DNA from: Eledone cirrhosa
Lineage: Eukaryota
Assembly (NCBI GenBank): GCA_964016885.1
Contig: OZ024741.1
Span: forward strand, 348,254,001-348,318,000
Length of the DNA stretch: 64,000 nucleotides
Reading direction: 5' to 3'
A model generated the notes under the pieces. That model was not told the DNA's origin and searched no databases. It saw only the letters and a list, made by a program, of their open reading frames with translations. A program made the position numbers and the translations under genes. Positions 3,612 to 61,700 of the stretch are shown here, piece after piece (within the stretch, counting starts at the first letter, position 1; each line of letters opens with the position of its first letter).

Positions 3612-3833
3612 AAAGCAAAATTATGTAGTTCATCAGTAGTAGAATATTAGTTATAGGTTAACTAAATTAAAAATAGTTTATATATTAATTTCTGAAGTGT
3701 ATATTAATTAGGTTTATAATTTTTAAAGCAGAATTATGTAGTTCATCAGTAGTAGAATATTAATTATAGGTTAACTAAATTAAAAATAATTTATAAATTA
3801 ATTTCTAAAGTGTATATTAATTAGGTTTATAAT
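3612..3833. repeat. ~113-bp tandem duplication overlapping the PLE stop codon
   Basis: AAAGCA(A/G)AATTATGTAGTTCATCAGTAGTAG...TTAGGTTTATAAT occurs twice (~3612 and ~3725). Confidence 0.85.
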
Positions 3834-4308
3834 ATTTAAAGTTTTTTCTCAGTTTATGATTACACGATATTATTAATTCCTGTCGCTTATTTAATAGGAT
3901 ATCCTTAGATTTCATTATTTCAAAACGTTCTTGGGAACATAATCTACATTCATTTCTACTATTTTGATAAGGGGTGGCCCTTTTGAGCACACTCCAGGTC
4001 AGGTCATATTCTATATTCCTCTTTCTATAACTATTTATTATTTCAGCTAGAGATGTTGTATTAGCTAGTGCGGCATTTTTAAAACTATGTTTGTGGGTAT
4101 TAAATCTTACCTTAAATTTGTTAGAGGTAGCTCCTATATATGAATAAATTGAGTCCTTAGTGTTAACTTTACATTTATATACTATGTTATTAACAAGGCA
4201 ATTTCCTTTTAATGGACAGTTTGCCTTGTTTCTACAGTTACAACTTTTCGTGAATCCTGTATCTGAGGAGATATTATGGTTAGTTTGATGTACTGGTGGT
4301 ATACTCAT
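3817..4308 (-). pseudogene. PLE GIY-YIG endonuclease (Hydra-type CxC-x5-C linker)
   Basis: CNCRNKANCPLKGNC, IVYKC...SYIGAT, FKVRFNTH, CRLCSQE, LLNKRQELIISCNH; no CCHH motif. Confidence 0.9.
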
Positions 4309-4439
4309 GGTTTTTTTACATTTATATGCATTATAGGCACTTATATTTTGTTTTATGTTTTTGGTTGTTGAGTAGGAGAATTTAACCGTTGATCTATTTA
4401 AGATTTGATGGTATTTGTGGTTTGGCGGGAAGTTTTTCT

Positions 4440-5465
4440 CTAGGATATTAAATAATTTTTTAGGTATATTATCCTTAATTTGTAAATTAAATGGAGCATT
4501 GTACCAAGTAACTCGTCTATTACGGTTTCGATGTTGTTTATTGTTTTATAGGATGCATCCTGATGTTTATTAAGAGAATTATTGTTAATGACCTCACCAC
4601 ACACATTTTTAGTTAGATTTATTGATTTAGGTGTTTTAGCTTGTTTATTAGGAGTTTTATTATTAACATTTATTAGAGTTGTAGGATGAGTAGTTTTTTG
4701 AGAGTTACTATACTGTATATTAGAAGAGTTAAAGAAATTTGGTTTTATGTTGGTGTTTTGGGGTATAGTGTGAGTGGAATTTAGGTGTGTATGTTTCATT
4801 TGGTGTTTGTTGGTAATATTAGGTTGTATGTTTGTAGTGTTATTGGTAGAAGGTATATATACTAATCTATTTTTGTGGCCACTTCTAGCTAGAGCTTCGT
4901 TATAAAAGGTCGCATTTTTATCAAATACATCTTGGTTAGACGAAAGGTTAGAAATTCTAAGTGATATATTATATGCAAGGTTTTTAAGGATAGATTTAGG
5001 GTGATTAGATTGTGAGTGTATGTAGTGTAAATTTTGGTTGGGTTTATGGTAAGGTTGGTAGATACCCGTAGATAAGTCTAATGTTATATCTAGGAAATTA
5101 ACTACTTTACTTGTGTTTTCAAATGTAATATCTAGACTATAATAGTCTTCGAGGAAAGTTCTAATAAGCTTTTTATATTTTTCTATCTCTGAGAGGCTAA
5201 GGTTATTGGAAAGAAGAAGACAGTCGTCACGATATAAACCACCTTTAAGGTGGGGAAAAGAAGCATTTATGTTAACAAGAAGAAAGAGGCCCACAAGATC
5301 AGTAATTTGGGCAGAATCGCTTGAGCCCATAGTAATATCGAATAGATTACTATATGTGTTTCTGGTCCAGTATTCATTCTGAAATTCCAATAGTGTTAGT
5401 CTAACATGTGTAATAATATTAATGTCATCCAAAGTTAAGTTAGATCTATTTTTAGCAAATATCAA
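4440..5465 (-). pseudogene. PLE reverse transcriptase (partial, frameshifted before the EN)
   Basis: FDITMGSSDSAQITDLVG, GLYRDD, VNFLDITLDL, PYHKPN, YIHSQSNHP. Upstream FLQFDID motif at ~5500-5525. N/T/K-rich low-complexity linker. Confidence 0.9.
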
Positions 5466-5556
5466 GGCTTTGTTCAGGAGTATAGAAGAAGAATAATTAT
5501 CTATATCAAATTGTAGAAATGAAGCAGAGGATTTATTTCTAATATTATTAAACCAG

Positions 5557-5624
<68 letters not shown>

Positions 5625-15489: not shown

Positions 15490-18400
15490 AAGATAACAAA
15501 AGTGATAGCAAGGTGTCGAGATGTTTCTTGAAGACATCCACCTCCACACCATGCAGATCTCTCAGATCCCTCGGCATCTTGTTGAAGAGTCGAGGGCCAT
15601 TGAATCCCAGGCTATTGCAATATCTGCTCCTTATTCTAGATGTGGAATACTGGACCTTTGCCAGCACACAGTGACGTCCTGTTCGACGGTTGGTCTAGCT
15701 CCCAATGCCAAAGTTTGGTGCTAGTCCCTCCAGGATTTTCTACATGTAGATCACTGCGTATCTCTCCCGTCTTCGTTCCAAGGAGTAGAGGTTCAGTTCT
15801 TTTAGCCTCTCCCATTAGCTTATCTCCTTCATCGTCGCAATCCTCTTGGTGTAGCTTCGGTGGATTGCCTCAAGCTCCGTGGTTAGTTTGACACTATAGG
15901 GTGACCACAACTGGGAGCAATATTCCAGGCGGCTTAGGACAAATGTCCTCCATAGTGTCAACATGGTTTTCTCGGTTTCTTGTCTGGAAAGTCCTCAAGA
16001 TCCATCCAGCGAGTAGTCTGCACATTGTCGCCACTTCCATAATGTGTGAGGAAAAAGATGCATCATCGCTCATGTCTATGCCCAGGTCTCGTATCGATTT
16101 TGACACGGGGATATCGGTCCCTCCTGGTCCTGCGTAACTGGTTTGTACTGTATTTGTGTTTGCAGGTTTGTATTATAGGGCTTGGAATTTGCCAGCATTA
16201 AACTGCATGTTGTTGTCTTCCTCCAATTTGTATATGGCATCCAGATCTTGTTGTAAAGGGCAGCGTCAGCCGGGTTTTGATTGCCTGTGCTACCTTACTG
16301 TCATGAGCATAGCTAGTGAGTGATGTTCTTGTATGTACTACAGAATGCATGTCTGAGAGAGCCACCAAAAACATTAGTGGTCCCAGGACTGTGCCTTGGG
16401 GCACCCCACTTGTTAGTGATGTTTCCTTTGAGAGGGCCCCGTTTGCTGCGACTGTCTGGCTTCTGTCCTTTAAGAAGTCATGCAGCCACTCACCTACTTT
16501 TGCAGTTATGCTGAGTTCGTGTAGTTTGTGACATATCATACCGTGGCCGACCTTGTCAAAGGCCTTCGCAAATCAAGATATATCATGCCCACATGTAAGC
16601 TGTCTAGCAGTTGCTTCAGTAACCAGTCGTAGTGATGTAGCAGCTGTGTAAGGCAGCTTCTTCCTGGGCGGAAGCCATGCTGCGTGCTAGTTAGGCGGTC
16701 ATTTTCCTCGAGGAAAGTGACCAGTTTCTTTCTGACGACTCGCTCCATGACCTTACTGATATGCGACGACAGGGAGACTGGCCTATAATTTTTGGCCTCC
16801 GCTCTGTTACCTCCTTTATGTATACGGCATATTGTGCCTTCTTTCAGATTCCTGGGTAGTATACCGCTAGCCAAAGAGCTTGTGAAGAGCGTCTTCAGTG
16901 GAGTTGCTAAGGCCCGCTTACATGTTTTAAAGACGACTGCTGGGAATCCATCAGGTCCAGCAGCTGAGTCTGTTCTAATTTCATATATTGCGTATACCAC
17001 ATCCTCCTCCGTTATGTCTATGTGGTTGATGGTCGCCATGTCTTCCTGTAGTGTTGTGGCATCAAAGAACTCCTCTGGCTTTGTTATTTGCATGTGCCTC
17101 AATGGACATGTGAACACACTTTTGTACTTTTCGTTCAGTATTTCACATATCTCTTGGGGATTCTCTGTTAGTGAACCGTCTGTATGGAAGAGTGACCGAA
17201 TCTTTCAGTGTACCGAGGCAGTTTCTTTTGCAAATTTTAAGAAGGCCTTAGGGTTTGATTTAATATTTTCTATGGCCCTGCTTTCTTTGCCCTCTCATTT
17301 TCATGGGAATGTTTGAGTGCAATATCGGTGTCAAGTAGTGCACGTTTCAAATAGGATGTCTTCTTGTTTTTGTTTTCTTGTTGTGCATTCAACTGGTTTC
17401 AGAGCTTGGTTCTACGTCTCATAAGGATTTCCCTATCTCTGGGAATAAGATTGTTGTGTCTGTTTGCCTTTTTCTCCGGGACAAACTTTTTGCATATAGT
17501 GTGTATCATTGTCATGAAGTGTTGAAATTGTGTGTTGGTGTCTTGTGTGGCGGTGTTTTCGCTACATATTTGCTTCCGGATTTCTCTCTTGATCTTTTTC
17601 CAGTTAATCTTGTAGAAGTTAAGGCTGGATAACGTCCCGGTGCTTCTTGATGGTTGTGTCTCTGTTGGTTCTCTCGGACCACATATCATTAGTTCTACTA
17701 AGTTATGATCCGAGAGAATTGTTGGTGTCACCTTTACATTGTGGATGAGCACCTCGTTGTTTGTAAAACAGGTCCAAGACATGTTCGCCTCTTGTTGGGA
17801 GGAGTACTGCTTGTTCCATGAACAGCCTGTGTGTGAGGGCCAGCAGGGACTCCGCCTGTCTCTGTTCTATTGGCGTCACTCCAGTAAGGGGGTGGCCCTC
17901 AGGCCATTTGACCTTTGGCAGGTGAAGTGTCCCAGCAGTGGAATGTTGAGACCCTGGTCCAGTTTGTCAAGGACCTCTTCTATCCTACTGAGGCTATCCT
18001 CAAATTTACCCTCACCAATGGGGGCATCGGGCGGCCGATATGTGACACATATTACTGTCTTTAGTTGCTTCATATGTACTATCAGTATGTCACAGACTAA
18101 GTTTGCATGCGTCAACAGTACAATTGGTGTGACGCATATACAGAGCAACCCCACCATGAGTTCTCTCCTTCCTGTCCGAACGAAATACAGTATATTTCGG
18201 TGTATGTATTTTTGCATCTACTATACTGCTTGTCAGGTGTGTTTCGGTTAGTACCATGCAAAATACTTGATTGCTTCTGGCTAAGTCTCCCAGGTTGGAA
18301 ATGTTACTCATGTTAGTGAGTTTCACCAGGCCTCTGACATTCAGCAGTAGCACTGGTGAGACTTTTGGGGTGCCATCAATGGCTGTCGGTATGATACCTG

Positions 18401-19235
18401 GCCTGGTGTCAGCGGCGGCCACTCTGGGTCACTTAATTGTGGTGGTCTCGAGTGCTGGTGTGGGCGACCCTGGCTCTGAAAACGATGTAGCCATGTCAGC
18501 TGTCCCACAATTTTCTCTGCCATCACTAAAAAATGTTTCTGCTCTGCTGCTGCCATCTGTATCTCGTCGGCATGTGCGTGCCCTCTCCTTGGTGGAGCGG
18601 CACGCGCGATATCAGCATACTTCTCGAGCGGCTTCTTTTGGCTCTGGCTGGGGCATGTTGCGCGAGTATGATGGGCATAGTTCGCTTGGGGTCTGGGGTG
18701 AGCGAATCTGCAGCCCATCCCTGTCTCTCCATGCCAGCAGGTCGCGTTCCTGAAGAACTTGCACATTACCTGGTCTTTCTTGCTCCCAGTGTCTCGGTGC
18801 TTTCTGTTCTTCCTTTGGACAGTTTTCCACTTGTCCCTCTCCAATTGGTTCTCCTTCGGAAGGTGATTTCGCTTCTTACCTTTACCGTTTGCTTGTTGGT
18901 TGCCCGGCCTGCCCTCCCTGACTGGCGGCGGGTATCTCATTTTCTTTCAGGTCCGTGCTCGTGCTTTCTCACTTTTCTTTTTAATTTCCTCTCTCTTTCA
19001 ACCCGTTTTATTCCTCCTTGAGTGCACGGCTTAGCATCACCACATGTGGCGCTATGGGGTCATAGACCTTCTCGATTTCTTTTATTTTTCTTTATATCTG
19101 CGCCAGAGTCCTCAGGAAGCCATGGTTCCTCAGGGTCTCTGCAATCATTTTGCTTGGTGGTGACCCTCAGCCAGGCTCCACCCTTTGATCAAAACCGCTA
19201 GTTCGATCTTTGACTAGTTGCGCTGGCTATTAATT
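15490..19235 (-). mobile_element. Decayed near full-length CR1-group LINE (ORF1 plus APE-RT ORF2)
   Basis: APE: LLNVRGL, LTETHL, SDRKERTHGGVALY, YRPP, SDHNLV. RT: AAGPDGF, NYRPVSL, QHGFRPGRSC, YLD, SGVPQGTVLGPLMF, YAHD (from YADD), RDLGIDMSDD, GPRLFN. Many frameshifts. 5' side abuts a GA-rich tract. Confidence 0.9.
18341..18940 (-). pseudogene. LINE ORF1 remnant with CCCH zinc finger
   Basis: CKFFRNATCWHGETGMGCRFAHP (C-x7-C-x8-C-x3-H) in a basic K/R-rich ORF immediately upstream of the APE domain. Confidence 0.65.
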
Positions 19236-20659: not shown

Positions 20660-23220
20660 ATTTCGTTTCTGAATTTGTTTAGCAAGATTCTTTATCTGAA
20701 AACGTGTGTTGAAACCGATATTGTTATACTTTGGGAGGGTCATGTTGCCAATAAGAAACACACGCACCAGCTGTTTCACTTCAATTTATTATAATAAATT
20801 TATAAATTTATGAATTTATAAATTTCCGGTTGGTTGGTTGGTTTCACAACCAGATGGTTGTTTATATATTGTCAAAGTTATTTCGTCACACATCCTGTGA
20901 CCTCTTCAGTGACTGGGGATTATTTTCTTTGTTTTTGTGCCTCTCCTTTGTTCTGTCCTACGCCATCTTGTTTCTGTGTGTGTGTTGTGTGCTCAGTCTG
21001 CGCATGCACCACATCCGGGTGTTTGTGTGTGTTTATATTCGTTTATTTATTTGTTTATTTACATGTTACTGGTTGGTTTTTTGTTCTATGTGCGTGTGTG
21101 TTTTCATTTTGTCCTTAATTGTAAGTTGTGATGTTGCTGTTCCACTCATGTTTTCTATTTAATTTTGGTTGGAGTTCATTTATGTTTATTGCCTCTGTGA
21201 TTTGTCTAAACATTGCGTCTTTTTTGTGTGTAGATTCTATTTTTATTTCTATTTTCTCTAATTTACCCTTATGTTCTATTTTAGCATGTTGGTAGAGTAC
21301 AGATGATTCTTTACTATCTTGAAGGTCTCGCCAGTGTTCATTTATCCTTTCCCCTACACTACGAGCTGTCTCACCTATGTACAGTATATTTTTATCTCTA
21401 CATTGTCCTTCAGTACATCTCATGCTATATACTATATTTCTAGTTTTACAGTTAATATGGGGGCTTAATTTACAGGTTGTACATTTCTTATCTATACAGC
21501 GGGTCTTTGAAAAGTGTATGTCTTGCTAATAAGTGTTTTTATGGAGGTACCTGGTCTTTCTACTATCTTAATATTGAGTTTATGTTTATCTAGGGCCCTT
21601 CTAAATTTGTAAGTTAATTCACCTCTAGGGGTTGTATCGATGAACATTACACTCTGGTATTTATTGCTATCATACCATGAGTTTAGTCTATTAGCCTTAT
21701 TCCTAGTTCTTTCTATTTTATTCCAAAATTTGCTCCTAGACAAGGGGCAGGTCCCATTTATGTCATTATTTACCATTTTTTCCCATTTGGTTCTGGCTCC
21801 TCTATACACTCTGATTTTATCTCTCTGATTGTAACCAGAGAACTGCATACGGTGGATGAAGTATTGTATGTGTCTCTCTAGTTCTTTGGGGTTTCACATG
21901 CGGGACACGTTTCTCATCACCCGTACCAAATCCGCAATCAGTATGTTGATTTTGGTATGGTCCGAAACAGCTGAGTTTCGGTGGATCAGATATATGGAAG
22001 TCATGGGTTTGGCATAATGGGAATGGAGGATTTGTTTTGTGTTATTAATGGTATATAACCATAACTCTGTGTCTAGTACAGGTAATCGATGGTTGGGGTG
22101 TTTGCTTGGGTAGTCTATAGTAATTCTAATACTCTGGTGGGTGGAGTTTGCTACTTGCTGGATGCTTTCCATTGTGTTTTTCTCTAATTCCTGACTATTC
22201 TCTAGTGGGTGGCTGTGTGTATGTGTGTGTGTGGGAGGGGGTTAACTACGATGTTTATATCATCAACGTATCGGGAGTACATTATCATGGTTAAGGGGTC
22301 TTCTAATTGTTTTTAAGTTTAAGTTTAAGTCTACTGTCCCACCATACCATGAATAAGTTAGCTATGTCTCCTGCAATGCTAACACCAATGGCTGCTGCTT
22401 CCTCTTGGGCATATGTTTTTCCATTAAATTTGAACATATGTTCCTTAAGGGTTAATTTTATTCTGGCCCCCACCGGATATGCAATCATTTTCTTTAGTTC
22501 ATCGTGGTTTTCAGGTCCACCCGTTCCATCTATCTGTGTGGGTTTTCTTGGCCATTAAGGTAATGGTAGGTGGTCTGCCTCTTGCTGGTCTTGTAGGGCA
22601 CAGGTTGCTAAGATCATATGTGTCTAGATAATTATTACTATAATAAATTTAAGTAGGAGTCCCAACTCACTTGTATCAATCCAACGGAACTCAACATTGC
22701 TCTCACTGATCATTTCTACGTATTTCTCCACAGCAAAATCCACGTCAATAGATGGATACAGGGACACAACATCCATACTACCTATTACGCAGTTTGTTAG
22801 GTCCCTAGATCGGTTACTCTCGCCGATTCTGCTGAGGAGATCTTCCGTGCTATCACACACATCAGGGGACATTTCAATGATGGGGCGTATGATCAGGGAG
22901 AGGAAGTAGGACAGTCTGTAGTCACTAGCAATGTTAGCTCCACAGACAGGCCGTGTTGGTGGTCCCGTGACAGGGTCACTGCCCGTTTTCTGTTCTTTTC
23001 GAAGCCCATACAACGCTGGCACGTCATTGTTCCAGGCCTGGAAGTTGTTGGCAGTCCTTTTGTTGGGCTGCATTATATTTGTCCACATCACCATATGGGG
23101 ATTGAGGGCTTTTTCTCTATCCTCATGCTCTTGGGATGTTACTTCTCTTGTATTAGTGATGTGGGGTTGCATTGCCTGGATGTAGTTTGGCAGACTGTCA
23201 ACCGACATTCTGCCAGACTT
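20660..23220 (-). mobile_element. 5'-truncated Penelope-like element (Naiad-like), decayed RT plus GIY-YIG plus HHR-bearing 3' pLTR
   Basis: PALYGLRKEQK, PTRPVCGAN, GSMDVVSLYPSI, AIGVSIAGDIANLFMVWWD, YSRYVDD (~22255-22280), LPVLDTELW, HYAKPM, MQFSGY, TPRGEL, KIVERPG, CTTC, IVYSMRC, YIGETAR, RINEH, RQITEAINI, LNRKHEW. Flanked by (TA)n. Confidence 0.9.
20871..20913 (-). ncRNA. Minimal type I hammerhead ribozyme motif
   Basis: GUCA CUGAAGA G GUCACA-GGAUG-UGUGAC GAAA UAAC UU UGAC. Confidence 0.7.
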
Positions 23221-23368
23221 TATATATATATATATGAATATATATAAATTTATATATGGTTTAATTGATTTTTTGTGGTTAACTATGCTAATTGGGAGAG
23301 GAAATGGTGTATATGTATTATCAAATGATTCTATGGACATACTTTATAGTATATATATATATATATAT

Positions 23369-24434: not shown

Positions 24435-25962
24435 TTTTTCTGTGTTGCACCATAGAGCATGTGTGTTTACGTGTGTCATTGTGTTTATATGTAGGTGGAG
24501 ATGTGTGCTGATGTAGGTATGTATGTTAACGTGTGTATGTTGTGGGTTCGTCTTAGGGAGCAGTGTTTAGACGGGGTCCGTATTTGTTAATGAAGTAAGA
24601 TTCCTTGCTGATGCGCTGGGTGTGGGTGGCATTATCTTTAAATTTGTAGAGGGGAAAGATTCTGAAGTTGGTATGATTTTGGGCGGCACAGGTATCAATG
24701 TGTTCACTCAGTGGTATTTTCCTGTATTCCCGTATTTTAATTTGGGATCTATGGACAGTCATGCGTTGGGGGAGGCTGTTTTTAGTCTGGCCTATGTATT
24801 GTTCTCGACAACCTGAGCAAGTTAATACATATATTAGATTTTCCGATGCACATGTGAAATTGTGTTTTACTATAAAACGTTGTCCATCTTTGAAATAGAA
24901 TTCCGAACCCTCTATTAGGTTGATGCAAATGCCACAGTTGGGTCTATCGCATTTTTTTACTGTGGGTTTCGTTGTTGTGGTTGGCAGTACTTTGGCATGT
25001 GTTAGGATGTTTTTCATTGACTTGGATTGTCCTTTGCTCTTTATGATATCGTGTGTTCGTAGAATTTGGTTCATTCTATGGTCCTTTTTCAACACAGGGA
25101 TGTTCTGGAGGATGGTGTCAAAGGCCTCATTGTTGAGAGGGTTGTGTGTGGAGATGTATGGAAGAGCTTTTAGTTTCGGTTGATTTACTTTAGGGTGTCT
25201 AAGGTCCTGGGTACTGAGTTTTAGGGCACCATGGATTCCATTGTCAATTAGTGATGCAGGGTAGTCCCTGCCTATGAATGTGTGCTTTAGTTCTTGTAGC
25301 CGTAAGTAGCAGATGTTTTTATTGGAGACTATAGTAGAGATTCTCTTGGCTAAGTTGTAGGGAATATTAATTTTAACGTGTCTAGGGTGGCAAGAGTTGA
25401 AGGGGAGATATTGCTTGGAGTCTGTGGGCTTGTAGTATATGTCTGTTTCTATTTTTTTGTTATGGATCGTAATGAGGATTTCGAGGAAGGGGAGTTGTTG
25501 ATGGCTGTATTCCACCGTGAAGTTAATATTCGTGTTGAGCCCATTTATAAGGGTGTGAAATTCTTTAAGTTTTTCGATGTTTTCGTGCCAAAGGATGAAG
25601 CAGTCATCTAGATATCGCTTCCAGTTCCTTTCAATGTGTAAGTGGAGGGTGTTTCCAAATTTGTTTAGGACTTTAGTGTAGAGGGTGATTTCCAGGAATC
25701 CCATGACTAGGTTGGCATAAGTGGGGGCTGTTTTCGTTCCCATAGCGGTCCCAGATTTCTGCCTGTAGGGTTTGTTATTGAAAACGAAGTAATTGTTCTC
25801 TAAGATAAATTTGAGTCCCTCTATCACGAATTCTTTTTTGATGCGTTGTGGGAGTTCGTTGTGGAAATTATCCAGCCAGAATTGGATAGCTTCTATTCCT
25901 AGGTTGTGGGGGATATTGGAGTATAGGTTGACTACATCGAACGTCACTAGTAGGGTTTGTTC
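24430..25962 (-). mobile_element. 5'-truncated Penelope-like element (Neptune-like)
   Basis: Uninterrupted RT-EN ORF plus short 3' region ending at (TA)n; 5' truncation is at the inner edge of the right inverted-repeat arm. Confidence 0.9.
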
Positions 25963-25968
25963 ACACAC
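24553..25968 (-). CDS. PLE RT plus GIY-YIG endonuclease polyprotein, 5'-partial but stop-free (471 aa)
   Basis: FDVVNLYSNI, QKSGTAMGTKTAPTYANL, WKRYLDDCF, PFLEI, YYKPTD, SCHP, linker CDRPNCGIC, LIYVLTCSGC, YIGQT, RMTVH, PLSEH, ESYFINKYGPRLN. Confidence 0.9.
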   Translation of the reverse strand: MCEQTLLVTFDVVNLYSNIPHNLGIEAIQFWLDNFHNELPQRIKKEFVIEGLKFILENNYFVFNNKPYRQKSGTAMGTKTAPTYANLVMGFLEITLYTKVLNKFGNTLHLHIERNWKRYLDDCFILWHENIEKLKEFHTLINGLNTNINFTVEYSHQQLPFLEILITIHNKKIETDIYYKPTDSKQYLPFNSCHPRHVKINIPYNLAKRISTIVSNKNICYLRLQELKHTFIGRDYPASLIDNGIHGALKLSTQDLRHPKVNQPKLKALPYISTHNPLNNEAFDTILQNIPVLKKDHRMNQILRTHDIIKSKGQSKSMKNILTHAKVLPTTTTKPTVKKCDRPNCGICINLIEGSEFYFKDGQRFIVKHNFTCASENLIYVLTCSGCREQYIGQTKNSLPQRMTVHRSQIKIREYRKIPLSEHIDTCAAQNHTNFRIFPLYKFKDNATHTQRISKESYFINKYGPRLNTAP

Positions 25969-30031: not shown

Positions 30032-31610
30032 ATTGTTATACTTTGGGAGGGTCATGTTGCCAATAAGAAACACACGCAAACAGTTGCTATCACTCCAATT
30101 TTTTATACATTAAAAACATCTTTTTAAACATTTTTTCAAAAAATTTATAAATTTCTGGTTGGTTGGTTGGTTGGTTCCACAACCGGATGGTTGTTCATAT
30201 ATTGTCAAAGTTCTTTCGTCACACATAATGTGACCTCTTCAGTGACTGGGATTCTTTTCTTTGTTTTGTGCTTCTCCTTTGTTCTGTCCTACACCATCTT
30301 GTTTTGGTATGTGTTGTGTGCTTAGTTTGCGCATGTGTTACATCCGGGTGTCTGTGTGTGTTTTTATTTGTTTATTTATTTGTTTATTTATATGTTACTG
30401 GTTGGTTGTTTGTTCTATGTGTGTGTGTTTTCATTTTGTCCTTAATTGTAAGTTGTGATGTTGCTATTGCATTCATGTTTTCTCTTTAATTTTGGTTGGA
30501 GTTCACTTATGTTTATTGCCTCTGTGATTTGTCTAAACATTGCGTCTTTTCTGTGTGTAGATTCTATGTTTAATTCTATGTTCTCTAATTTGCCTTTAAG
30601 TTCTATTTTAGCATGTTGGTGGACTATTGATGATCCTTTTCTATCTTGAAGCTCTCACCAGTGTTCATTTAACCGGTCTCCTATACTACGAGCTGTTTCA
30701 CATATGTACACTATATTCTTATATTTACACTGTCCTTCAGTACATCTTATGCTATATACTATGTTTCTAATTTTACAGTTAATATGGGGGCTTAGTTTAC
30801 AGATTATGCATTTCTTATCTATACAGGGAGGTCTTTGAAAACGGTATGTATAACTAATAAGTGTTTTTATGGAGGTACCTGGTCTTTCTACTATCTTAAT
30901 ATTAAGTTTAAGTTTATCTAGGGCCCTTCTACATTTCTAAGCTAATTCAGCTCTAGGGGTTGTATTAATGAACATTACACTCTGGTATTCCAAAATGTGC
31001 TCCTATACAAGGGGCAGGTCCCATTTGTATCATTATTTACCATTTTCTTCCATTTGTTTCTGGCTCCTTTATATATTCTGATTTTATCTCTCTGATTGTA
31101 ACCAGAGAACTGCATACGGTGGATGAAGTGTTGTATGTGTCTCTCTAGTTCTTTGGGGTTGCACATGCGGGACACGTTTCTCATCACCCGTACTAAATCC
31201 AAAAACAGTATGTTGATTTTGGTGTGATCCAAAACAGCTGAGTTTCGATGGATCATATACTTGGAAGTCATGGGTTTCGCATAATGAGAATGGAGGATTT
31301 GTTTTTTGTTACTAATGGTTTCTAACCAGATCTCTGTGTGTAGTACATGTAATCGGTGTTTGCTTGGGTACTCTATAGTAACTCTAATACTCTGGTTGAT
31401 GGAGTTAATTATTTGCTGGATGCTTACCATGGCACTTTTCTCTAATTCCTGACTGTTCTCTAGTGGGGGTGTTTTTATACGATGTTTATATCATCAACGT
31501 AGCGAGAGTACATTATCAGGCTTAAGAGGTTGCTGTCTTCTAATTGTTCTTTAAGTTGATTGTCCCACCATACCTTGAATAGGTTTGCTATGTCACCTGC
31601 AGTGCAAACA
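30032..31610 (-). mobile_element. Second 5'-truncated, internally deleted copy of the Naiad-like PLE
   Basis: Colinear with ~20720-22375; ORF 30975-31430 (HYAKPMTS, MQFSGY); GIY-YIG remnant; 3' end abuts (TA)n. Confidence 0.9.
30204..30246 (-). ncRNA. Minimal type I hammerhead ribozyme motif
   Basis: GUCA CUGAAGA G GUCACA-UUAUG-UGUGAC GAAAG AA CUU UGAC. Confidence 0.72.
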
Positions 31611-33167: not shown

Positions 33168-36100
33168 TTATAAAACCTCCTTGTACACAATGTTTTTTGT
33201 TTTTCCTTGCGGAACGAACGCGAAATCATCACTCTTGCTTCTGACATGCGAGCAGCCAAGGTAAAGCTGACCATGAGAGAAACACGGCTCCCCCAAATGT
33301 ATTCCCGTGACAGACAGTGTTTGTCCCTGCGCTTTGTTAATTGACATTGCGAAATATGGCCTGACCGGGAACTGGGACCTCCGAAATGTGAAACGTTGGT
33401 CTGCTCCTGATGGGAAAAGATGCATACTCGGTATGAGCACAACCTTGCCCCGACCGCACCCTATAATTATCGTGGCCTCAATCAGATTGGGAGTTAAGGA
33501 CTTAACGACCAAATGTGTGCCATTGCATCGTTTCGGCGGAACCAAATTTCGAATGAGCATTATAGGGGCACCAAATTTAAGTTTCAAAATGTGTGGGGGT
33601 AATCCGGGGGGGGGGGGGATTTAGTACCTCTATTTGATAGTTGATGACATCCTCGGGGTAAGGAGTTTTATCGATAGACTTATATACGTAGCCATCCCAG
33701 GAATGAGGTTTAGCATTTGATCATTAATATGGTAATCAGTTTTATTCCTCGGGGCCAGAATAGGCCTTTGCGCAAGCCAATCCATATTCTGATAATTTGC
33801 TTGGATATCTGGGAACACTGCATCACTGAGATCAGAAGGCGTACTAACAACGGTACAAAGTGAGTCGATGGCAATATTACCCCTCTCATCCCCGGGCGTT
33901 TTGCCTTCGCCAAGTGCAAGGAGGGTGTGAGAAAATGCTGCTGATGTGATATAACCTCGCATATGAGCACGCATGTTAGTGTGAAGTTTCAGAGTCTTCA
34001 CCAGGGGCCACAATGCGGATGACTTAAGACACGCACGTACTGCATCAGTTCTAGTCCCCTTGGGAATAACGGGAAGTGTTTGCCTGAAGTCCCCTGAAAG
34101 AAGAAGTGTTATGCCTCCCATTGGAGCCGTAGAGTCTTTGATGTCTCTCAGAGTTCTATCGCGCGCCTCAAGAGCACCTCTCTGGGCCATCGTGCATTCG
34201 TCCCAAATGATAAGCTTGCATAGTCTGAACACTTCTGTCTGATCGGATCTCTTACTGATGTTGCAAGTGGGTGTCTCAGTCTTCGCTAAGTCAAGCGGGA
34301 GCTTGAAATAGTAGCCGCAATTCCAGATGATGCCACAGCTAAGGCAATGCCTTCTGTTCGCCTAATCTCAGCTAATATTAATTTGGTGACAAAAGTTTTC
34401 CCAGTCCCCCCAGGAGCGTCCAGGAAAAAAATCCCCCCAGCTTTGCCCCGGAGAGAATTAACAACGGAGTTGTAAGCGATTTCTGTTCTGGAAGGCGCTT
34501 TGGCTCATTCTCCGCTATGTACTGGGCAAGCACGTCAACATTATGAGATGTCTCACGCAGCAAATCCGAAGACAGAGTGTCTGCGCCTTCCCGGTTTGTT
34601 AAAGGTAGGCCATACACAGCCAACGCACTACCGCCCATATCGAGAACAGTATCTTCGATTTCAAGCAGCGCCCTGTTGTAAATGAGGTCATTGTACCCGA
34701 CATGCATCGATGGGTTTAGTAACTGAGCGTGACGCAGGAAATCTTCAGACATGTAATCTTTGTAGCTAAGCCATAAAGAAGCCGGATCACCCAAGTCGCA
34801 CCATAGGAGTAGAATAGCGAAAAGCGATCTTAGTCTTTTAGGAGATTTCAACAAAACGCCCTTTGCCATAGTGGAGCCCCATTGTGAATCATTCTCCAAA
34901 AAGCCACGCCTAAATCAGGCTTCCCGGAAGGTATCACATAATTCACCGTCAACAGTTCTTATTTCTCGAAAGCTTTGTGGGCCAAAAACCTCATGGAGGA
35001 GAAGGCGCAGGTGAAAACACTCATTTTAGTTGGGAGGTACAGTGTACACTCTTCCTAGACAACTGTCAAACTTGACACCAGGATGTCCTTCAACATCCTG
35101 ACCTGACTTCCTACGCACCCAAGTGTTGTTTGACCACACGTAGTAGGACGGGGCCTGAGGATATGAAAGTGTTTTTGCAAATGTGTCAAGTTGGTAAAGC
35201 GTAAAAAAAAACAGTCAAAGTTGTTTCTTTTGAATTGGCCGCCAAATGAGCAGCAGTCTGTTCAGTAAAGTAAGCCCGCTGGCCGTTTTCCAAATGAACC
35301 GCTAGTTGTATGATGGCGGGGTGCCTTTGGTGAAGTGGAAACCCGAATATCCTCCAAAAAGCTTCACCATTGCTGATATATCGACCTGCGAAGTACTCCG
35401 AGACCTCGTCCCTGCTATTGTCGTTTTGAAGGCCGAACATGGCAGCGTCGGAAACCTTGTTAACATATTTACATATATACTTTATCGACTTCACTGAATG
35501 ACAGAACTCCACATTTATATGAGCGTTGAAAGTTTTCATCAGAAATGGACAGTACGGGACCACCCACCTATTATCAACTTGATGACCCAGTAACGTCATA
35601 GTGAATCCAACGTTCTTAGGCCGGCTTCGTCTGTACAGTGGGTATTCATCGCCGCCGGTCTGGGTCTCCCCAACAAACCTCTTTGGGTATCGTTTAGTGC
35701 ACACATGGTCCTTGTGGCATGAAGAGAACTCTTGAAAACCGGGACTGCACGGACCGTGCACCATGTGTGCCTTCACAATGTCGTACAGCTGCCGGTCAAC
35801 AACGGGGTCCGGTATTTCCGCTGCGATGACGTCATCTATAACTGTAGGGTCTATTTTGGTGACCAACCAAACCAAAATGTGCGCGTGTGGTAACCCTCTC
35901 TTCTGCCACTCAACAATATACATGTGGTACCTAACAGGCCCGAAAATGTTCCCTTTTTTTATTAGATCAATTAGCTTAGCCAGCTTCGGCCTGAAAACTC
36001 TGTCAATAATATCATGCCGATGGCAGTACTGCTGCCCTGTGATAGGTCCCCGCGTAACCTCAACCCACTTGGGGCTACACGTAAACGTGATGAATAAATG

Positions 36101-37940
36101 CCGAACGAACGTCATAGCGTCCTGTGTTCGTTCGTGCATGTACGCCCCCCCCCCGGTATAGGTTGAGGGGAGAATGCACATTTTGCCGATGTTCCGGAGG
36201 TCAGTGTCATTCCTGATGCCGTCACGCAAATGGATGTAGGAGTCTGAGCGCAGCTGCTTCTGATTAAATTTTATGAAGCACAGTTTCTCCGACTCCATCT
36301 TTTCAGCCATGTCAACTGCAAACTAGTGAAACAGTTTCCGTGACCTGTGCAGGGTGCTGAAATTGTTAGGCCTCGTCATGAAGCGGTATGAGTATAAAGC
36401 CATGCATGAAACAGTGTTAGTTGTCGCAGAAGTGGGCTCGTTTGCTTTGCGCTGAGGAATGCAGAAATGGTACCTGTCTTCTCCGTATGCAAACAGAAGG
36501 GGATACTGCAGGGCGTCGTATGAACGATGCGTCTCATTAATACTTTGAAGACCACTGTCACGACTTTGAAGAAGTATGTCTCGCTTATTGTGCTGTTCAC
36601 CATGGATAACTACGGCCACTCCATTGCACGAAGGAGCGTTATAACGGCGAGCGTGCTCCCCAGAAGGTCTTTTGTCAGCATCGATGACAATGGTGAAGTT
36701 TGGTGAAGGATTTGTTTCCAATGCGTATTTGAAACTGCGAATATAACTGTTGTGCTCATGAAGCATGTTTTGAAGACCGAGCAGCACGTCCCTTTCAAAA
36801 GTGTCAGCGTCAGTGTTTGCAGGTGTTGGAATAACGCCGAACCGCGCATCAACTTGCCTACTGTAGTTAGAAATGAAGTAAATTTGAAGGAACGAAGGCT
36901 TGCAATTTTTTAGTGGCTGGAGCGACCCAATAACATGGTACACCTGCCCCTGGACCTTGAAAGTAGGCATCCAACCACTTTCTTTGACAACGTTAGTCCC
37001 GAAAAAGTCATTTGAGACGCACAATTTTACATCCTGATGAGTTGAAGGAATTTGGATGACCTTGAGGTAGAACCAGTAAGTAGTTCCTTCAAAAGCTCTG
37101 GTGGTTCCCCAAGAGTGGGCAAGCTGAACTTACCGTTTAAGCAGCACATTGTAGGTGGCTCCCCAGTCCACTTTTTATCATTGCAGAATTTGCAATTGAA
37201 TTTGCAATTGAAGCGCATTTCCCCTATATTTATGTAGGCACGCATCGAGTAGTTAACGTTGGGCTCATACTTGAAAGCCCGTAGGTACCAGTATGGGCTG
37301 TCGGGGCTCATCACACCGCGGGCAGCTTTTTGTCGTCGACTGTTCCGATCCATCGCAGAACGTTGCTCCGGTGGGTCGTGGGAAGCTCTCGCAGCAGTAG
37401 CAGAAGCCACCCTTGCAATTCTAATGGAGCGCCCGTCTGCATCTAACAGAAGTCATGGAAGCAGTTATAGCCGCAGCGTTCCTAGCAAGGCGATTCGTCC
37501 GCCGTTCCAAACCTTCCAAAGCCCTGGAAGCAGCAGTAGACGCAGCGTTTCTATTCAGTCGAGCCGCCCTTTGTTAGGGCCCCTCTGAAGCCCTAGAAGC
37601 AGCAGTAACAGCAGCGTTTCTATTCAGGCGAGCCGAACTTTGTTCCGGGCCCTCTGAAGCCCTGGAAGTAGCAGTAGAAGCGTTTTATTTGGAATGACGT
37701 ATCGCCCGCTCTGAATCGCTCATCGCTGCACGTCTCGAGGCGTCGTATGAAGCCAACTTGGCTAGGCGTGCAGTGCGTTGTTGAAAACTTTCAGCAGCTC
37801 TGCATTCCGCTGAACGTAAGGCGCTCTGTGAAAGTCTTAAAGCAGTTTCCGGGGGGGGGGGGCTCGTTTGCTGTAATCGCCGTCTGCGCCGCCGATGACG
37901 CGGTATGGCGACCGAGGCGACTTCTCTTTTTAGGTGGCAT
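33168..37940 (-). pseudogene. Helitron Rep/PIF1-helicase (RepHel) pseudogene, multiple frameshifts and stops
   Basis: Start MPPKKRSRLG; Zn motif CKFC...CCLNG; FKVQGQVYH; YDALQYPLL. HUH Rep motifs FITFTCSPKW, VEWQKRGLPHAHIL, KYICKYVNK. Helicase DAPG(G)TGKTF (frameshifted ~34400-34425), [40 protein letters not shown]. Confidence 0.95.
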
Positions 37941-42008: not shown

Positions 42009-42297
42009 CATACATATATATGTATCAAGTGTTCCCGTAGGAAAGGTAAAGGAAAGGAAAGTGCCCTATGTAGACTACAGAGCTTTTTAGTTATGTAATA
42101 AATAACATAAGTTAATTGTTTCATTTACCAAAGGTTTCACGAAGACATATGACCTTGACACAGACGTCTGAAATCGTTCGTCAGAATGAAAATTTATTTA
42201 AAACAGATGTGAGATATGGATTTCAAAAGAAAGTCTAGAAATATTGAAAGCGAGACTGAAATATAATAACGGACGTATTGTAAAGCGAAAATAATAA

Positions 42298-42367
<70 letters not shown>

Positions 42368-42371
<4 letters not shown>

Positions 42372-43194
42372 TATGAAGAGAGAAGAAACATTTAGATATA
42401 ATTAGTAATAAAATGTATCATACCTAAACTGCTCCTAAATTCCTCGACTACGTAGTTTCGTGGCATAAACAAAAACAATATATCATAAAGATATAGAGTC
42501 CTTGCGAGGTCTGCCGACTTATCAAGAGGATACCTCATTTTACTAGTCTCAAGAACGCGTCTACACGACGTGAGAAAGAATCCCAAAAGGCGGAGGGGGA
42601 GATAGTCACGCGATATAACGGTCGAGAAACAGAGCTAAGCCTCTTATAACCCCGAAGAAAATACCACGGAGGCGGAGGGGGTATTTATATCGAGGCCGTA
42701 GAAGAGGTGGTGAAGAAGGCGAGAAGTATGAGTAATGGAAGCTTTCCAGCTGTCCCCACACTTCAAAGATTGCTCGACCAGAGGGAGTTATTAACAATAT
42801 ATTTATTTAGAAACACACAGATACATGCGGACACACACATATATACATGAATGCATCCGCACCCAACTGTGAGTTAAGGGTGCCAACTTCACCGATGTTG
42901 CTCAATGAATGACCGGGACAGACCAATTCAGTTGAACTAGACTGAACCAATATCAGAGTTAAAAATACATGTGCGGAATTTAGGAGCAGTTTAGGTATGA
43001 TACATTTTATTACTAATTATATCTAAATGTTTCTTCTTTCTTCATAATGTATTTTTAACTCTGATACTGGTTCAGTCTAGTTCAACTGAATTGGTCTGTC
43101 CCGGTCATTCATTGAGCAACATCGGTGCAGTTGGGTACGGATGCATTCATGTATATATGTGTGTGTCCGCATGTATCTGTGTGTTTCTAAATAA

Positions 43195-43201
<7 letters not shown>
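42368..43201 (-). mobile_element. ORF-less HHR-bearing element with interlaced inverted repeats (PLE pLTR/retrozyme-like)
   Basis: A (42368-42443) inverted at 42975-43052; B (42797-42970) inverted at 43047-43201; intact HHR; (TA)n on both flanks. Confidence 0.75.
42441..42530 (-). ncRNA. Type I hammerhead ribozyme, U3-A8 core variant, long stem II
   Basis: UCCUC UUGAUAA GUCGGCA...UGCCAC GAA ACUACGUAGU C GAGGA: perfect 5-bp stem I, palindromic stem III, GUC site (cut between + positions 42446 and 42445). Confidence 0.85.
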
Positions 43202-43252
<51 letters not shown>

Positions 43253-43427
43253 TATATAAATATACACATACATATATAATCACATACTCACGCATATACT
43301 CACATACTTACACATACGTACATGTACATATACATATATATATACACATACATACATACACACATATCACTTGCACATGCGTACACATACATAAACATAC
43401 ACATACACATATCTATAAATATAAATA

Positions 43428-44341
43428 CTAGGTGGGTCAGAAAACCTCCAGGACTGATGTCACAAAAGATTTCTTTCAAACCCAAACTTCACACCAGGAG
43501 TTTTCTCCTTCAAAGTAATCCCCCTGGTGGATGTAACTGTAAACTTAGCTCTCTGCAGCGATCAAACTTTTTTCTTCATAATGTTATATACATGTCCTCT
43601 GTTTCAGGTCGTCAAGCAATGAGCATAGAGCAACGAACAAACTTGAAGTTTCTGGTATGGTTGAGGAAAACTCCGTCAGAAGCACTGGGATTGCTGCAGC
43701 AAGTGTATGGAGATGAGACGATGTCACGCACACGTGTTTTTGAGTGGTGCAAGAGGTTTAAAGAATGACGCGAAGACGTGGAAGATGACCCCAGGAGCGG
43801 AAGGCCCTCAACAGCCAGGACTGAGGTCAACGTTGAGCACGTCAGGCAGATGGTGCGTAGCGATCGTCGGCTGACTGTTCGACTGATGGCAAATGAGCTG
43901 GGCATGAATCGGGACAGCGTCTGGAAGATTCTCACTGAAGATTTGGACATGCGGAAAGTCTGCGCGAAGATGGTGCCAAAATTGCTGAACGATGACCAGA
44001 AGGGTCGACGCATGCAAGTGTGCCAGGACATCCTCGAGCGTCTTGAAACCGAACCACACTTGTTAGGGACATTCATCACCGGTGATAAGTCATGGATCTT
44101 CGAGTACGACCCGGAGTGTAGCCGTTTGAAGAGGTGGACGACATCAAAAAGGCCGTGACGACGGATTGCGGAGGATCCCGGATGAATCCCTCCAGGAGTG
44201 CAGGCAAGCGTGGTAGAAAAGGCTGGAAGAGTGCATTAGACGCCAGGGGGATTACATAGAAGGAGAAAAGTCTTAGCGTGAAGTTTGGGTTTGAAATAAA
44301 TATTTTGTGGCATCAGTCCTGGAACTTTTCTGACCAACCTC

Positions 44342-58729: not shown

Positions 58730-61700
58730 AGGTCGTACCTAGATAGGATCCTAGTTAGAAATAAGGATAGGGACCTTTTAAGCTGTCCAAAGATGCTCAT
58801 CGTTGGCTATTCGGATCCCAAATTAGTGACCTGCTTACTCAACCTCGATAGAACCCATAGACAGGGACCCGGTTACTGGAAACTGAACTTGTCCTTACCG
58901 GCAAGTAAAGTGTACAGGGACCGGATTAATACTTTAGTTAAAGAGCGGTTGACGGGAGCGATCGTCAACAGCAGGTAGTGGGGATCTCTCAAAAGAGAGA
59001 TTAGAGTAGTTTCAATAGGATTTAGTAAAGGAATTAGCCTTAGATAGAAATAGGAAGGAAAGAGAGTTGGTAGATAATGTAGAAGAGGCAGTTAGAAGCG
59101 GCGACGTGGCCAGAGTGCTAGCGTGGAGATACGGCCTTGTGCCAGTTCTTGGACGCGACGCACGAAGGCTGCGTTGTCCGAAGCAAAATACGTGCTCTAG
59201 GAAACGAGGGGACCAAAGCTGTTAGCTGGGCTCGCGTGACAGAAGCCAAAAGAGGGATTAGATCCACTATCCGGTCTTTGCGACACCAGGATGTACGGGT
59301 GATCCTTGAACCTAAGCAGATGTGTGAGGCCTTTCAAAGGCACTTTACCCGATTGTTGGAGAGGGGTGGGGGGCCGGATGGGGATGTGGACTTCGGTCCA
59401 TACCTCGACGGCCTGCCGCGTCTTTCGGACGAGGAGGCGAAGTCCTGCGCAGGGCCGATTTCTGCTGCTGAGATAGAGTACGTGCTGAGCCGATGCGGCA
59501 AACGCAAATCCCCGGGTCTCGATGGTCTTCCATACGAACTATATCTAGCTATGCCGGACTTGTTCCCCGATCTCCTCGAGGCGGTCTACTGCAACTGGCA
59601 ACAGAACGGGAGAATTCCCTGTTCTGTAACCAAGGGTGGAGTCTTGCTAGTGAGGAAGGACGAGAACAAGAGGGATGAAATAAGTAATTTCAGGCCCATA
59701 ACTCTGCTAAATGCAGATTTAAAGATTTTGGCCAAGGTGTTAGCAAAGAGGTTGGCGCTTGTCTTAGGCAACCTGGTGAGAGATGCGCAGACATGTGCTA
59801 TCCCGTCAAGGTCCATCCACGACAACCTCCACCTTATGCGATACATTATAGAGAGGGTTGGGAATGAACCCGGCTTTGGTGGGGCCCTGATCAACATGCA
59901 TCAATATACGGCGTGCGCTAGGGTCGACCATCGTTACCTAGATGCGGTGCTAGCGGCGGCAGGTTTCGGACCCCTTTTCAGGGGCTGGATCACTGCCATT
60001 GCACAGCAGCCGCATCTGCTCTAGAGTCAAGGTGAACGGCTACCTCTCGGAGCCGTTCGAAATCACGAGGTCCATCCGACAATAGTGCCCTCTCTCCTCC
60101 TTTCTGTATGCATTGGCCCTCGAGCCACTGCTGTGGAAGTTGGAGTTGTTGCAGGGCATCCCTTTGGAACCGGGATTGCGGAAAGCCGTGTCGGCCTATG
60201 CCGATGACGTAACAGTAATGGTGTCGACCGCCTCGGAAATCGGGGCGATCGGCACCTTACTGGAGGTGTATGAAATGTTTACAGGGGCTAAGCTGAACCG
60301 GGACAAATCGATCGGGTTGCAACTTGGCACGTGGAGGGACAAATCGATGCCCTCCGTTTGCGTCGTCGGACGCTGGATGGAGGGCCCGGGGAAGTTGCAC
60401 GGGGTCTGGTTCGGACCAGACCTTCAGGTGGAGAAGAGCTGGGTTAAGGTAACGAACAGGGTCTTTACACTAACGCTGAAGTGGGCCGAGTGCAAACTAT
60501 CCCTGAAAGGTTGGGCGGAGTTGGCGAACACTTATATAGCCTCCGTCATCTACTACTTCCTGACCGTCGTGCCTTGCCCAAGGGAAACCCTCACCAAAAT
60601 GGAGCGCGCACTCTTCCAATTACTTTGGAAGAAGTGGGCCCCTTTGGTGAGGAGATCCATCTGCTGTCAACACCCTTCGAATTCGAAAGCAGGGCTGGAG
60701 ATGCCGTGGCTGCTGATGCATTAAGGCTACGGCACCTCCAGGTATTCCTCACCGGTCAACCGGTGTGGGCCCCATTTGTGAGACGAACCTTTCCGAGACT
60801 CGTCTCACTCACCGAGCTGCAATCCTGGGTCAAGCAAAGACCGAGAAAACTGGGCGCCTGGCACACCGAGTGTGCCCAGGGGCTCAAGGCTCTCTGGCAG
60901 GCGGACCCGGCTATCAGTGGAGACTCCTCCTCGACATTCTATAGAGGGCTGGTACGCAGCAGGTGCGACGACGCCCTCGGGGAAGCCCTAGGCATGGAGG
61001 AAGATGAACTGGCCAGCCTGTTCGGTAGGACATTTATCCCGGGACCCATGGACAACTTCCAGAGGTGCCTGGTTTGGCAGTGCTACCGAGGGTCTCTGCC
61101 GCTTCGAGAAAAGCTCCACAGACACGGGCGCCCGGGTAGGGACCCCTCTAAAGAGATCTGTCCCAGATGCGAGCGCGACGAGGAAACCGTCGCGCATGCA
61201 TTGGTACACTGGCCGGGCGTCGCCGATCTGTGGGGCTATGTCGAACGACTGCTGTCATGGGTGGGACCTATCCGGTTGAGCACCGAGTCCATTATAACGA
61301 TTAAGCCGCCTCGCCCCTTCAAAAATGAAGGAGAGGCGGTGTTTCTGTGCGTAATAGCCATGGTGAAAGAGGTTGTATGGTGGACGCGTTTGAAAGGACT
61401 GAGGTCAGACACCTTTCTCTCCGGCCAACAACTGGTCCTTTTCTTCCGATATCATTTCGGAAGAACATCAGGATGGAGAGAGATGTGCTCCACCCCAGCC
61501 AGTTTTATGAAAGGTGGGTGAAAGTGGCGAGAATGGCCCGTGTGAATGGGCCTTCTCTCTTTATCAGCCTGTAGGTGGAGAGGCGGAATTGCAAAGGAGC
61601 ACCCCCTCTCTGTGCTCCTAAGGAAAATGGTTGCACACTTTTTCGGGCGTGTGTGTAACCCCCAAAACGCCTCCTTCCTATTGAGGACTATATTGTTAAT

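What the first reader, a model, noticed from the sequence alone, without database searches (positions are those of the whole stretch)
42368..43201. ORF-less ribozyme element with interlaced inverted repeats; the inversion begins at the self-cleavage site
Seen: the order A-HHR-spacer-B-A'-B' between two (TA)n tracts. The HHR (42441-42530, minus) is complete, with a 5-bp stem I, palindromic ACUACGUAGU stem III and a GUC site. The predicted 3' cleavage product begins GAGGAAUUUAGG. The inverted copy A' begins GCGGAATTTAGG at 42973, within 2 nt of that point. B' lacks ~20 bp lying between CCAACT repeats in B. Inference: the insertion was templated by ribozyme-cleaved RNA with two template switches, a fossil of the poorly understood PLE priming mechanism or a non-autonomous family.
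Basis: partly seen in the sequence, partly recalled or inferred. Interest (0 to 1): 0.78.

Follow-up and report, generated by a model that had tools for sequence, protein, structure and literature searches.

The report
Two-ended insertion of ribozyme retroposon
This is one copy of a young, non-coding jumping repeat that carries a ribozyme-shaped motif and sits in thousands of TA stretches of the genome; most sampled copies have two arms joined head to head whose outer ends use two different fixed sites, which likely records both ends of the cut chromosome starting to copy the RNA, not a ribozyme cut starting the inversion.

Summary
The repeats and the hammerhead motif are real, but the reading changes. 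The locus is one head-to-head insertion of a 595-nt tandem, ORF-less hammerhead family (non-LTR retrozyme; 2,516 exact end-plus-TA matches in the genome). A'B' is one contiguous arm, so there is one inversion junction, not two. In 147 loci, 90 are head-to-head; 84 of these end at monomer position 80 on one side and ~245 on the other, fused to (TA)n. The two arms share variants (6 of 862 sites differ, against 24.5% between loci). Inner junctions scatter around the monomer. Genome-wide, 13 events start at +1 to +3 of the cut site, against 11 and 4 raw hits in two neighbouring controls; 225 of 227 sampled passages read through it. Best explanation: Penelope-type priming from both target strands at two paired start sites (inferred). 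A tail at one end of inverted Penelope insertions is already in print; the near-strict pairing in a retrozyme was not found in my searches. The scan noted a cut-site-starting arm in another genome. No partner element, RNA data or read across this junction was found.

The parts
42301..42368 (.). left (TA)34 target tract
   Evidence: family ends are fused to (TA)n
42366..42970 (-). arm 1: one full turn of the 595-nt monomer, outer (3') end at monomer position 80, inner end at position 75 of the preceding unit
   Evidence: (L001), 99% to the commonest monomer
42366..42371 (-). start site 80 (AUGUAU), TA-like, merged with the TA tract; inferred reverse-transcription start
   Evidence: 135 of 237 arms end at 74-85; 2,516 exact end-plus-TA matches
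42441..42530 (-). type-I hammerhead motif, U3-A8 core, 5-bp stem I, long stem II, palindromic stem III, predicted cut 42446/42445; cleavage untested
   Evidence: core positions unchanged in 320-321 of 321 copies
42825..42862 (-). predicted hairpin b (monomer ~181-217) upstream of start site ~245
   Evidence: z=-4.2 for 42790-42862, 0 of 200 shuffles as stable
42971..42974 (+). single head-to-head junction, 4 extra bases GTGC; with the next GGA it matches monomer 183-189
   Evidence: (L103)
42975..43042 (+). predicted hairpin a (monomer 3-70) upstream of start site 80; it would pair the 3' strand of hammerhead stem I
   Evidence: z=-3.2, 0 of 200 shuffles
43127..43128 (+). 20-nt deletion (monomer 156-175) private to this arm
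   Evidence: 1 exact match genome-wide
43190..43201 (+). start site ~245, TA-like, with a 4-nt insertion that arm 1 also carries (near 42797-42804) and no other fetched locus does
   Evidence: 97 of 237 arms end at 240-252
43202..43278 (.). right (TA)n target tract

Best explanation
The locus is a head-to-head insertion of a 595-nt, ORF-less, hammerhead-bearing tandem family (a non-LTR retrozyme) in a (TA)n tract, likely made when a Penelope-type enzyme supplied in trans primed reverse transcription from both ends of the cut target. Shown: arm layout, two fixed outer ends (80 and ~245), their pairing, shared variants in both arms, scattered inner junctions with short microhomology, read-through of the cut site. 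Inferred: a GIY-YIG nuclease cuts both strands of (TA)n; one 3' end anneals to the UA-rich site at 80 and the other to the site at ~245, each just 3' of a hairpin; both copy uncleaved multimeric or circular RNA of one source for variable lengths; the two cDNAs are joined head to head by 1-5 nt microhomology or a few added bases. The near-strict 80/245 pairing would mean that the two priming events are coupled in one asymmetric complex, likely a protein dimer. The ribozyme would process or circularise transcripts but is not what sets the inversion point; this arm starting at +3 is likely a chance or weakly favoured stop at the foot of hairpin a.
For: 90 of 147 curated loci are head-to-head; 84 pair 80 with ~245, 1 is 80/78, none 245/245, 5 have one other end. 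Among loci not chosen by their ends, 47 of 48 are mixed (my recount of the table; p about 2e-13 at even odds). Arms differ at 6 of 862 diagnostic sites in 73 loci, against 24.5% between loci; this locus has a 4-nt insertion in both arms seen in no other fetched locus. 33 of 81 junctions have at least 2 nt microhomology (chance 16%), 19 have inserted bases. In 33 of 84 paired loci, this one included, arm lengths are impossible for fold-back of a single cDNA. 77 and 65 of 84 arms read through the cut site. Both sites follow stable hairpins. Two autonomous PLE families in this genome also end at two alternative sites fused to (TA)n. A purified Poseidon protein cut and extended both target strands, started at two internal sites, was modelled as a dimer and did not need hammerhead cleavage (PMC11167929, main text read).
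Against: No autonomous partner found: three PLE families checked share no sequence with the monomer beyond TA/TG-rich stretches (the two strong hits, in L238, are a neighbouring retrozyme copy) and a pattern search for a divergent continuation found nothing. In PMC11167929 start sites did not differ between strands and were not homologous to the target, whereas here they are TA-like and paired. Of 5 autonomous head-to-head loci fetched, 2 were informative: one long/short, one short/short. No pile-up of one arm at the other primer (2 and 2 against 4.4 expected), so a single linear RNA needs strand displacement. Target duplications cannot be read in (TA)n. 57 of 147 loci are single-armed. Most of the sample is the first 106 Mb of one chromosome and was curated by hand.
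Confidence: 0.72

Rival explanations
1. One target-primed cDNA only; the inverted arm is made by a switch to an antisense RNA or second-strand template, and its outer end is set by the nuclease cutting element DNA at the other TA-like site ('EN-mediated resolution' or antisense self-priming, as proposed for PLEs).
For: It gives the same one-tail/one-no-tail ends; proposed in PMC8557442 (passage) and PMC3846280 (passage). Both sites look like the (TA)n target.
Against: Self-priming predicts near-symmetric junctions: only 5 of 90 have inner ends within 10 nt (3.2 expected). Fold-back on the same cDNA is impossible in 33 of 84 loci. It then needs a separate antisense template carrying the same variants.
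Confidence: 0.17
2. One reading: arm 2 ran off the 5' end of a ribozyme-cut RNA, and the cut caused the inversion.
For: Arm 2 starts at +3; 7 distinct events start exactly at +1 and 5 at +2 genome-wide; fewer hits just upstream of the cut (4); inner ends at 1-20 are 15 against 5.6 expected. It can be true for this copy without being the family's rule.
Against: The +4..+6 control has 11 raw hits; a similar excess lies at 153-185, where there is no ribozyme (21 against 9.3); arm 1 of the same locus reads through an intact cut site; the junction letters match monomer 183-189; 225 of 227 passages read through.
Confidence: 0.08
3. Assembly artefact or DNA-level rearrangement after insertion.
For: No public contig bridged the junction, so it has no read check here.
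Against: 84 independent loci obey the same end rule; the arms here differ by three substitutions and a unique deletion, which an assembler's copy would not.
Confidence: 0.03

Closest known systems
Metazoan non-LTR retrozymes (PMC7229834, passages; bioRxiv 10.64898/2026.07.22.740005, parts 1-3 of 5 read)
   Same: ORF-less tandem units, one type-I hammerhead per unit, GC under 45% (42%), monomers to short multimers, co-occurring with PLEs.
   Different: 595 nt is above the 170-400 nt of the first paper though inside the 51-972 bp of the second; U3-A8 core; strict (TA)n targeting, two fixed ends and head-to-head pairs were not in the text I read ('inverted' has 0 occurrences in PMC7229834); expression, circles and cleavage untested here.
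Penelope-like element insertions with an inverted 5'-truncated copy and a tail at one end (PMC8557442, PMC3846280; passages)
   Same: Head-to-head arms, an extension present at one end only, microsatellite targets, hammerhead upstream of the 3' ends.
   Different: No ORF; tail 165 nt rather than 30-40; two weakly similar hairpin modules (14 of 1000 shuffles score as high); junctions mostly not palindromic; pairing counted over 90 loci.
Poseidon PAc in vitro (PMC11167929, main text read)
   Same: Two internal start sites that match genomic ends, both target strands extended, uncleaved RNA as the main template.
   Different: There the start sites were not homologous to the target and did not depend on strand; here they are TA-like and nearly always one of each.
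L1 twin priming (recalled; PMC2837659 seen as a search listing only)
   Same: Both target ends prime, giving an inverted 5' arm joined by microhomology.
   Different: In L1 the second primer lands at variable sites and the arms do not overlap; here it uses a fixed site and both arms can copy the same positions for more than one unit (14 of 84 loci with both arms over 600 nt).

Membership tests
non-LTR retrozyme | tandem units of a few hundred bp | tested here: met
   40 of 41 cut-site-to-cut-site intervals are 595 nt; arrays up to ~4.5 units
non-LTR retrozyme | one type-I hammerhead motif per unit | tested here: met
   motif anatomy; 321 full copies, core nearly invariant; not matched by Rfam
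non-LTR retrozyme | no protein coding capacity | tested here: met
   longest ATG ORF 76 aa
non-LTR retrozyme | self-cleavage of the RNA | not testable with these tools
   U3-A8 covariation is reported natural and active (PMC3088659, one passage); short palindromic stem III points to dimer cleavage (PMC4209133, passages)
non-LTR retrozyme | expressed as linear and circular RNA | not testable with these tools
   no RNA holder listed; 213 variants fixed across all units against 16 partly shared in 49 loci fits a monomer bottleneck but is indirect
PLE-mobilised element | two alternative 3' ends (tail) | tested here: met
   232 of 237 arms end at 74-85 or 240-252
PLE-mobilised element | inverted 5'-truncated copy with the tail at one end | tested here: met
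   84 of 90 head-to-head loci
PLE-mobilised element | AT-rich or microsatellite target | tested here: met
   outer ends fused to (TA)n; 2,516 exact matches
PLE-mobilised element | pLTR sequence shared with an autonomous PLE | tested here: inconclusive
   three families checked, none shares it; the genome holds tens of thousands of PLE-like candidates, of which 90-150 per search were scored
autonomous PLE | RT plus GIY-YIG ORF | tested here: not met
   no ORF
hammerhead-cut template as origin of inversions | inner breakpoints cluster at the cut site | tested here: not met
   2 of 168 inner ends at +1..+3; 13 events genome-wide against 11 and 4 raw control hits: at most a weak excess

The most novel reading that the evidence does not exclude
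The Penelope tail is the footprint of an asymmetric dimer that loads two reverse transcriptases at two fixed sites of one RNA, probably a circle, so that both ends of a double-strand cut are extended by rolling, strand-displacing synthesis. This retrozyme, with two hairpin start modules 165 nt apart, would be a minimal substrate that shows it and would be direct genomic evidence that retrozymes move by PLE enzymes.
Probability: 0.3. Interest if true: 0.75.

Novelty: new variant of a known kind. Interest (0 to 1): 0.52.

Why it matters
How Penelope-like elements make their tandem and inverted structures is named as an open problem in PMC8557442, and how retrozymes are mobilised is left open in the 2026 preprint. 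A young 595-nt family with thousands of copies gives counts that separate the models: ends pair one of each, both arms come from one source, single-cDNA fold-back fails, and the ribozyme cut matters little. It supplies a short RNA and a sharp prediction for existing in vitro PLE assays. The single locus itself is an ordinary copy.

Tried and rejected
Rfam scans of the window and of the element found no hammerhead family; hits are microsatellite-driven miRNA matches. Sequencing runs: no RNA holder listed. Laying 4 runs on 42200-43400 and 4 on 42930-43160 gave no contig across the junction or the deletion, and the Hi-C run laid nothing; these runs may be other individuals, so this is no test. 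Partner search: three PLE families (30, 20 and 30 loci) and one pattern prompted by a loose end were negative. One 22-nt pattern in metagenome contigs: 0 hits. Two template switches: rejected, A'B' is contiguous. Repeat-mediated deletion between CCAACT copies: does not fit exactly. Hot spots at monomer 1-20 and 153-185 were noticed after the fact; the best 33-nt window has p=0.07 after scanning. One search overstated arm differences because of indel placement; one search repeats it on 23 substitution sites. The binomial used 48 of 49; my recount is 47 of 48. Rows dropped: L064 (no TA-primed end), the 82%-diverged copy in L066, L138 and L176 (run off the fetched stretch); locally duplicated insertions were counted once; loci with extra short switches were reduced to two arms; L101-L116 (chosen for ending near the cut site) were left out of those counts. 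Control hits were not fetched; about 2 of the 11 look like single-base deletions. Literature searches for twin priming, head-to-head pairing or structures in PLEs and retrozymes returned no paper stating the pairing; subscription journals are largely missing and no supplements were read, and those of PMC11167929 and PMC8557442 may bear on it.

Full report
Observation. The minus strand 42441-42530 has type-I hammerhead anatomy: TCCTC/GAGGA stem I, core UUGAUAA, a long stem II, GAAA, a palindromic stem III and GUC. The core has U3-A8 in place of C3-G8, a covariation reported as natural and active (PMC3088659, one passage). Rfam does not call it. Cleavage is untested.

The family. A search of the 3.0-Gb genome gave 1,382 candidates, 39 scored, at 98-100% identity and often in tandem. 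40 of 41 cut-site-to-cut-site intervals are 595 nt. Numbering +1 as the base after GUC, the window is arm 1 (minus strand, 42366-42970, from position 80 back one full turn to 75), four bases GTGC, and arm 2 (plus strand, 42975-43201, positions 3 to ~245). A'B' is thus one piece in natural order, and the interlacing is circular permutation plus one junction. Exact-pattern counts are 2,133 for positions 3-27 and 2,516 for the position-80 end followed by TA. The monomer is 42% GC with no ATG ORF over 76 aa and folds better than shuffles as a circle (z=-6.6, 60 shuffles). The hammerhead core is unchanged in 320-321 of 321 copies, and common variants fall in stem II; the family is too young to show core covariation.

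End rule. I mapped loci from three lists: the best scorers, the first 100 hits and the first 100, and curated 147 (dropped rows are listed under Tried and rejected). 232 of 237 arms end at 74-85 or 240-252, at UA-rich words merged with (TA)n. 90 loci are head-to-head: 84 pair 80 with ~245, one is 80/78, none is 245/245, five have one other end. One search selects for an 80 end, so I recounted only the other two lists: 47 of 48 are mixed (p about 2e-13 at even odds; one search ran 48 of 49 by miscount). Each site lies 3' of a stable predicted hairpin, and the two modules are weakly alike (14 of 1000 shuffles).

Inner ends spread around the monomer. In the position-sampled set 225 of 227 passages through +1 continue upstream. 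A genome-wide pattern that demands mismatches at -1 and -2 found 16 hits, 13 distinct events: 7 at +1, 5 at +2 and this locus at +3; it misses junctions that match either base by chance, and two further +1 ends were seen (L152, L158). The same design gave 11 raw hits at +4..+6 and 4 at -7..-5 (pattern holds a CpG), neither inspected. So a mild excess just downstream of the cut is possible (13 vs 4, p=0.049; 13 vs about 9, p=0.52), but it concerns about 1% of passages. Among the 84 paired loci, inner ends are enriched at 1-20 (15 vs 5.6) and equally at 153-185 (21 vs 9.3), both at the 5' foot of a hairpin; this was seen after the fact (scan p=0.07). Here the junction GTGCGGA equals monomer 183-189 (about 6% by chance), so a microhomology jump explains +3 as well as a run-off does.

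One source, two primers. At 23 diagnostic substitution sites the two arms of a locus differ at 6 of 862 comparisons, against 24.5% between loci. This locus carries a 4-nt insertion in both arms that no other fetched locus has, while the 20-nt deletion is unique to arm 2. 33 of 81 junctions have at least 2 nt of microhomology (16% by chance) and 19 have added bases. If one cDNA folded back on itself, one arm would have to lie inside the other; 33 of 84 loci, this one included, break that limit, and only 5 of 90 junctions are near-symmetric. Neither arm piles up at the other's primer, so the template is either two RNAs of one source or one RNA copied with strand displacement. Across 49 loci, 213 variants are fixed in all units, 164 are private and 16 are partly shared: mostly uniform templates, as a circle or a fresh array would give, with a few mixed multimers. 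These data do not decide between one RNA and two.

Mechanism (inferred). A PLE protein in trans cuts both strands of (TA)n, primes at 80 with one end and at ~245 with the other, copies uncleaved or circular RNA, and the two cDNAs join head to head. This fits PMC11167929 (parts 1-2 of 4 read): both strands cut and extended, two internal start sites, a predicted dimer, no need for hammerhead cleavage. It differs in that those start sites were not target-like and not strand-dependent. The main rival is nuclease resolution after a switch to an antisense template.

Partner. The window holds three PLE-like families; one has many open 784-aa frames. Two end at two alternative sites fused to (TA)n, about 38 and 57 nt apart, and the third family checked has a minimal hammerhead-like motif in its 3' region (read). 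None shares sequence with the monomer, and one search found no divergent continuation. Of 5 autonomous head-to-head loci fetched, one was long/short, one short/short and three unreadable, so the pairing is not shown to be general.

Known and new. The element fits non-LTR retrozymes (PMC7229834 passages; preprint 10.64898/2026.07.22.740005 parts 1-3 of 5). Inverted copies with a tail at one end are described for PLEs (PMC8557442 and PMC3846280 passages). My eight searches found no statement of the paired-end rule, the 165-nt tail or head-to-head retrozymes; the library is incomplete and no supplements were read. No notes matched this sequence or genome.

Verdict. A real, ordinary copy of a young retrozyme family. 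No RNA data or read across this junction was available.

Noticed in passing
window 24553-25968 (-); L197-L226: RT plus GIY-YIG PLE fragment of a young family with many open 784-aa frames; two 3' ends about 38 nt apart fused to (TA)n; 122-124-nt tandem pair in its 3' region; my motif scan found no family-wide hammerhead.
   Followed up: partly
window 3817-5621 (-); L227-L246: Second PLE-like family, frameshifted here, with a 113-nt tandem unit holding CTGATGA right after the ORF and a microsatellite-rich 3' region.
   Followed up: partly
window 30975-31490 (-); L248-L276: Third PLE-like family with a minimal hammerhead-like motif followed by two 3' ends about 57 nt apart, both fused to (TA)n.
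   Followed up: partly
window 22624-23343 (-): Another decayed PLE-like RT fragment (judged from the translation; no Pfam hit).
   Followed up: no
window ~43430-44130 (+): Broken mariner/Tc1-like transposase remnant right of the element (recognised from the translation, not scanned).
   Followed up: no
window 33168-37129 (-), 16536-18946 (-), 59122-61521 (+): Fragments that read like a Helitron helicase and two non-LTR retrotransposons (from translations; names recalled).
   Followed up: no
L066 1142-1436; L121 1216-1490; L122; L175: Older, 82-93% identical relatives of the retrozyme; the L066 copy is also head-to-head with ends near 81 and 236.
   Followed up: no
L096, L099, L180, L107/L108, L114/L115: Whole insertions with their flanks repeated in tandem two or three times: local duplication or assembly duplication.
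   Followed up: no
L002/L196, L004, L057, L072, L154, L180: Junctions with extra short pieces of the monomer in either direction, showing several template jumps in some insertions.
   Followed up: partly
20 runs under 17 coded organism labels hold words of the element (shares 0.12-0.74); spread across species or horizontal transfer is possible but unverified.
   Followed up: no
loose ends at 42424 (X5) and 42631 (X1, X2): Contigs share monomer ~410 to +22 and then continue into other sequence; they could belong to a related element or the partner. A pattern search in G000 found nothing.
   Followed up: partly
L206, L227-L246 flanks: Single unrelated hammerhead-like motifs near PLE loci suggest further ribozyme families in this genome.
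   Followed up: no
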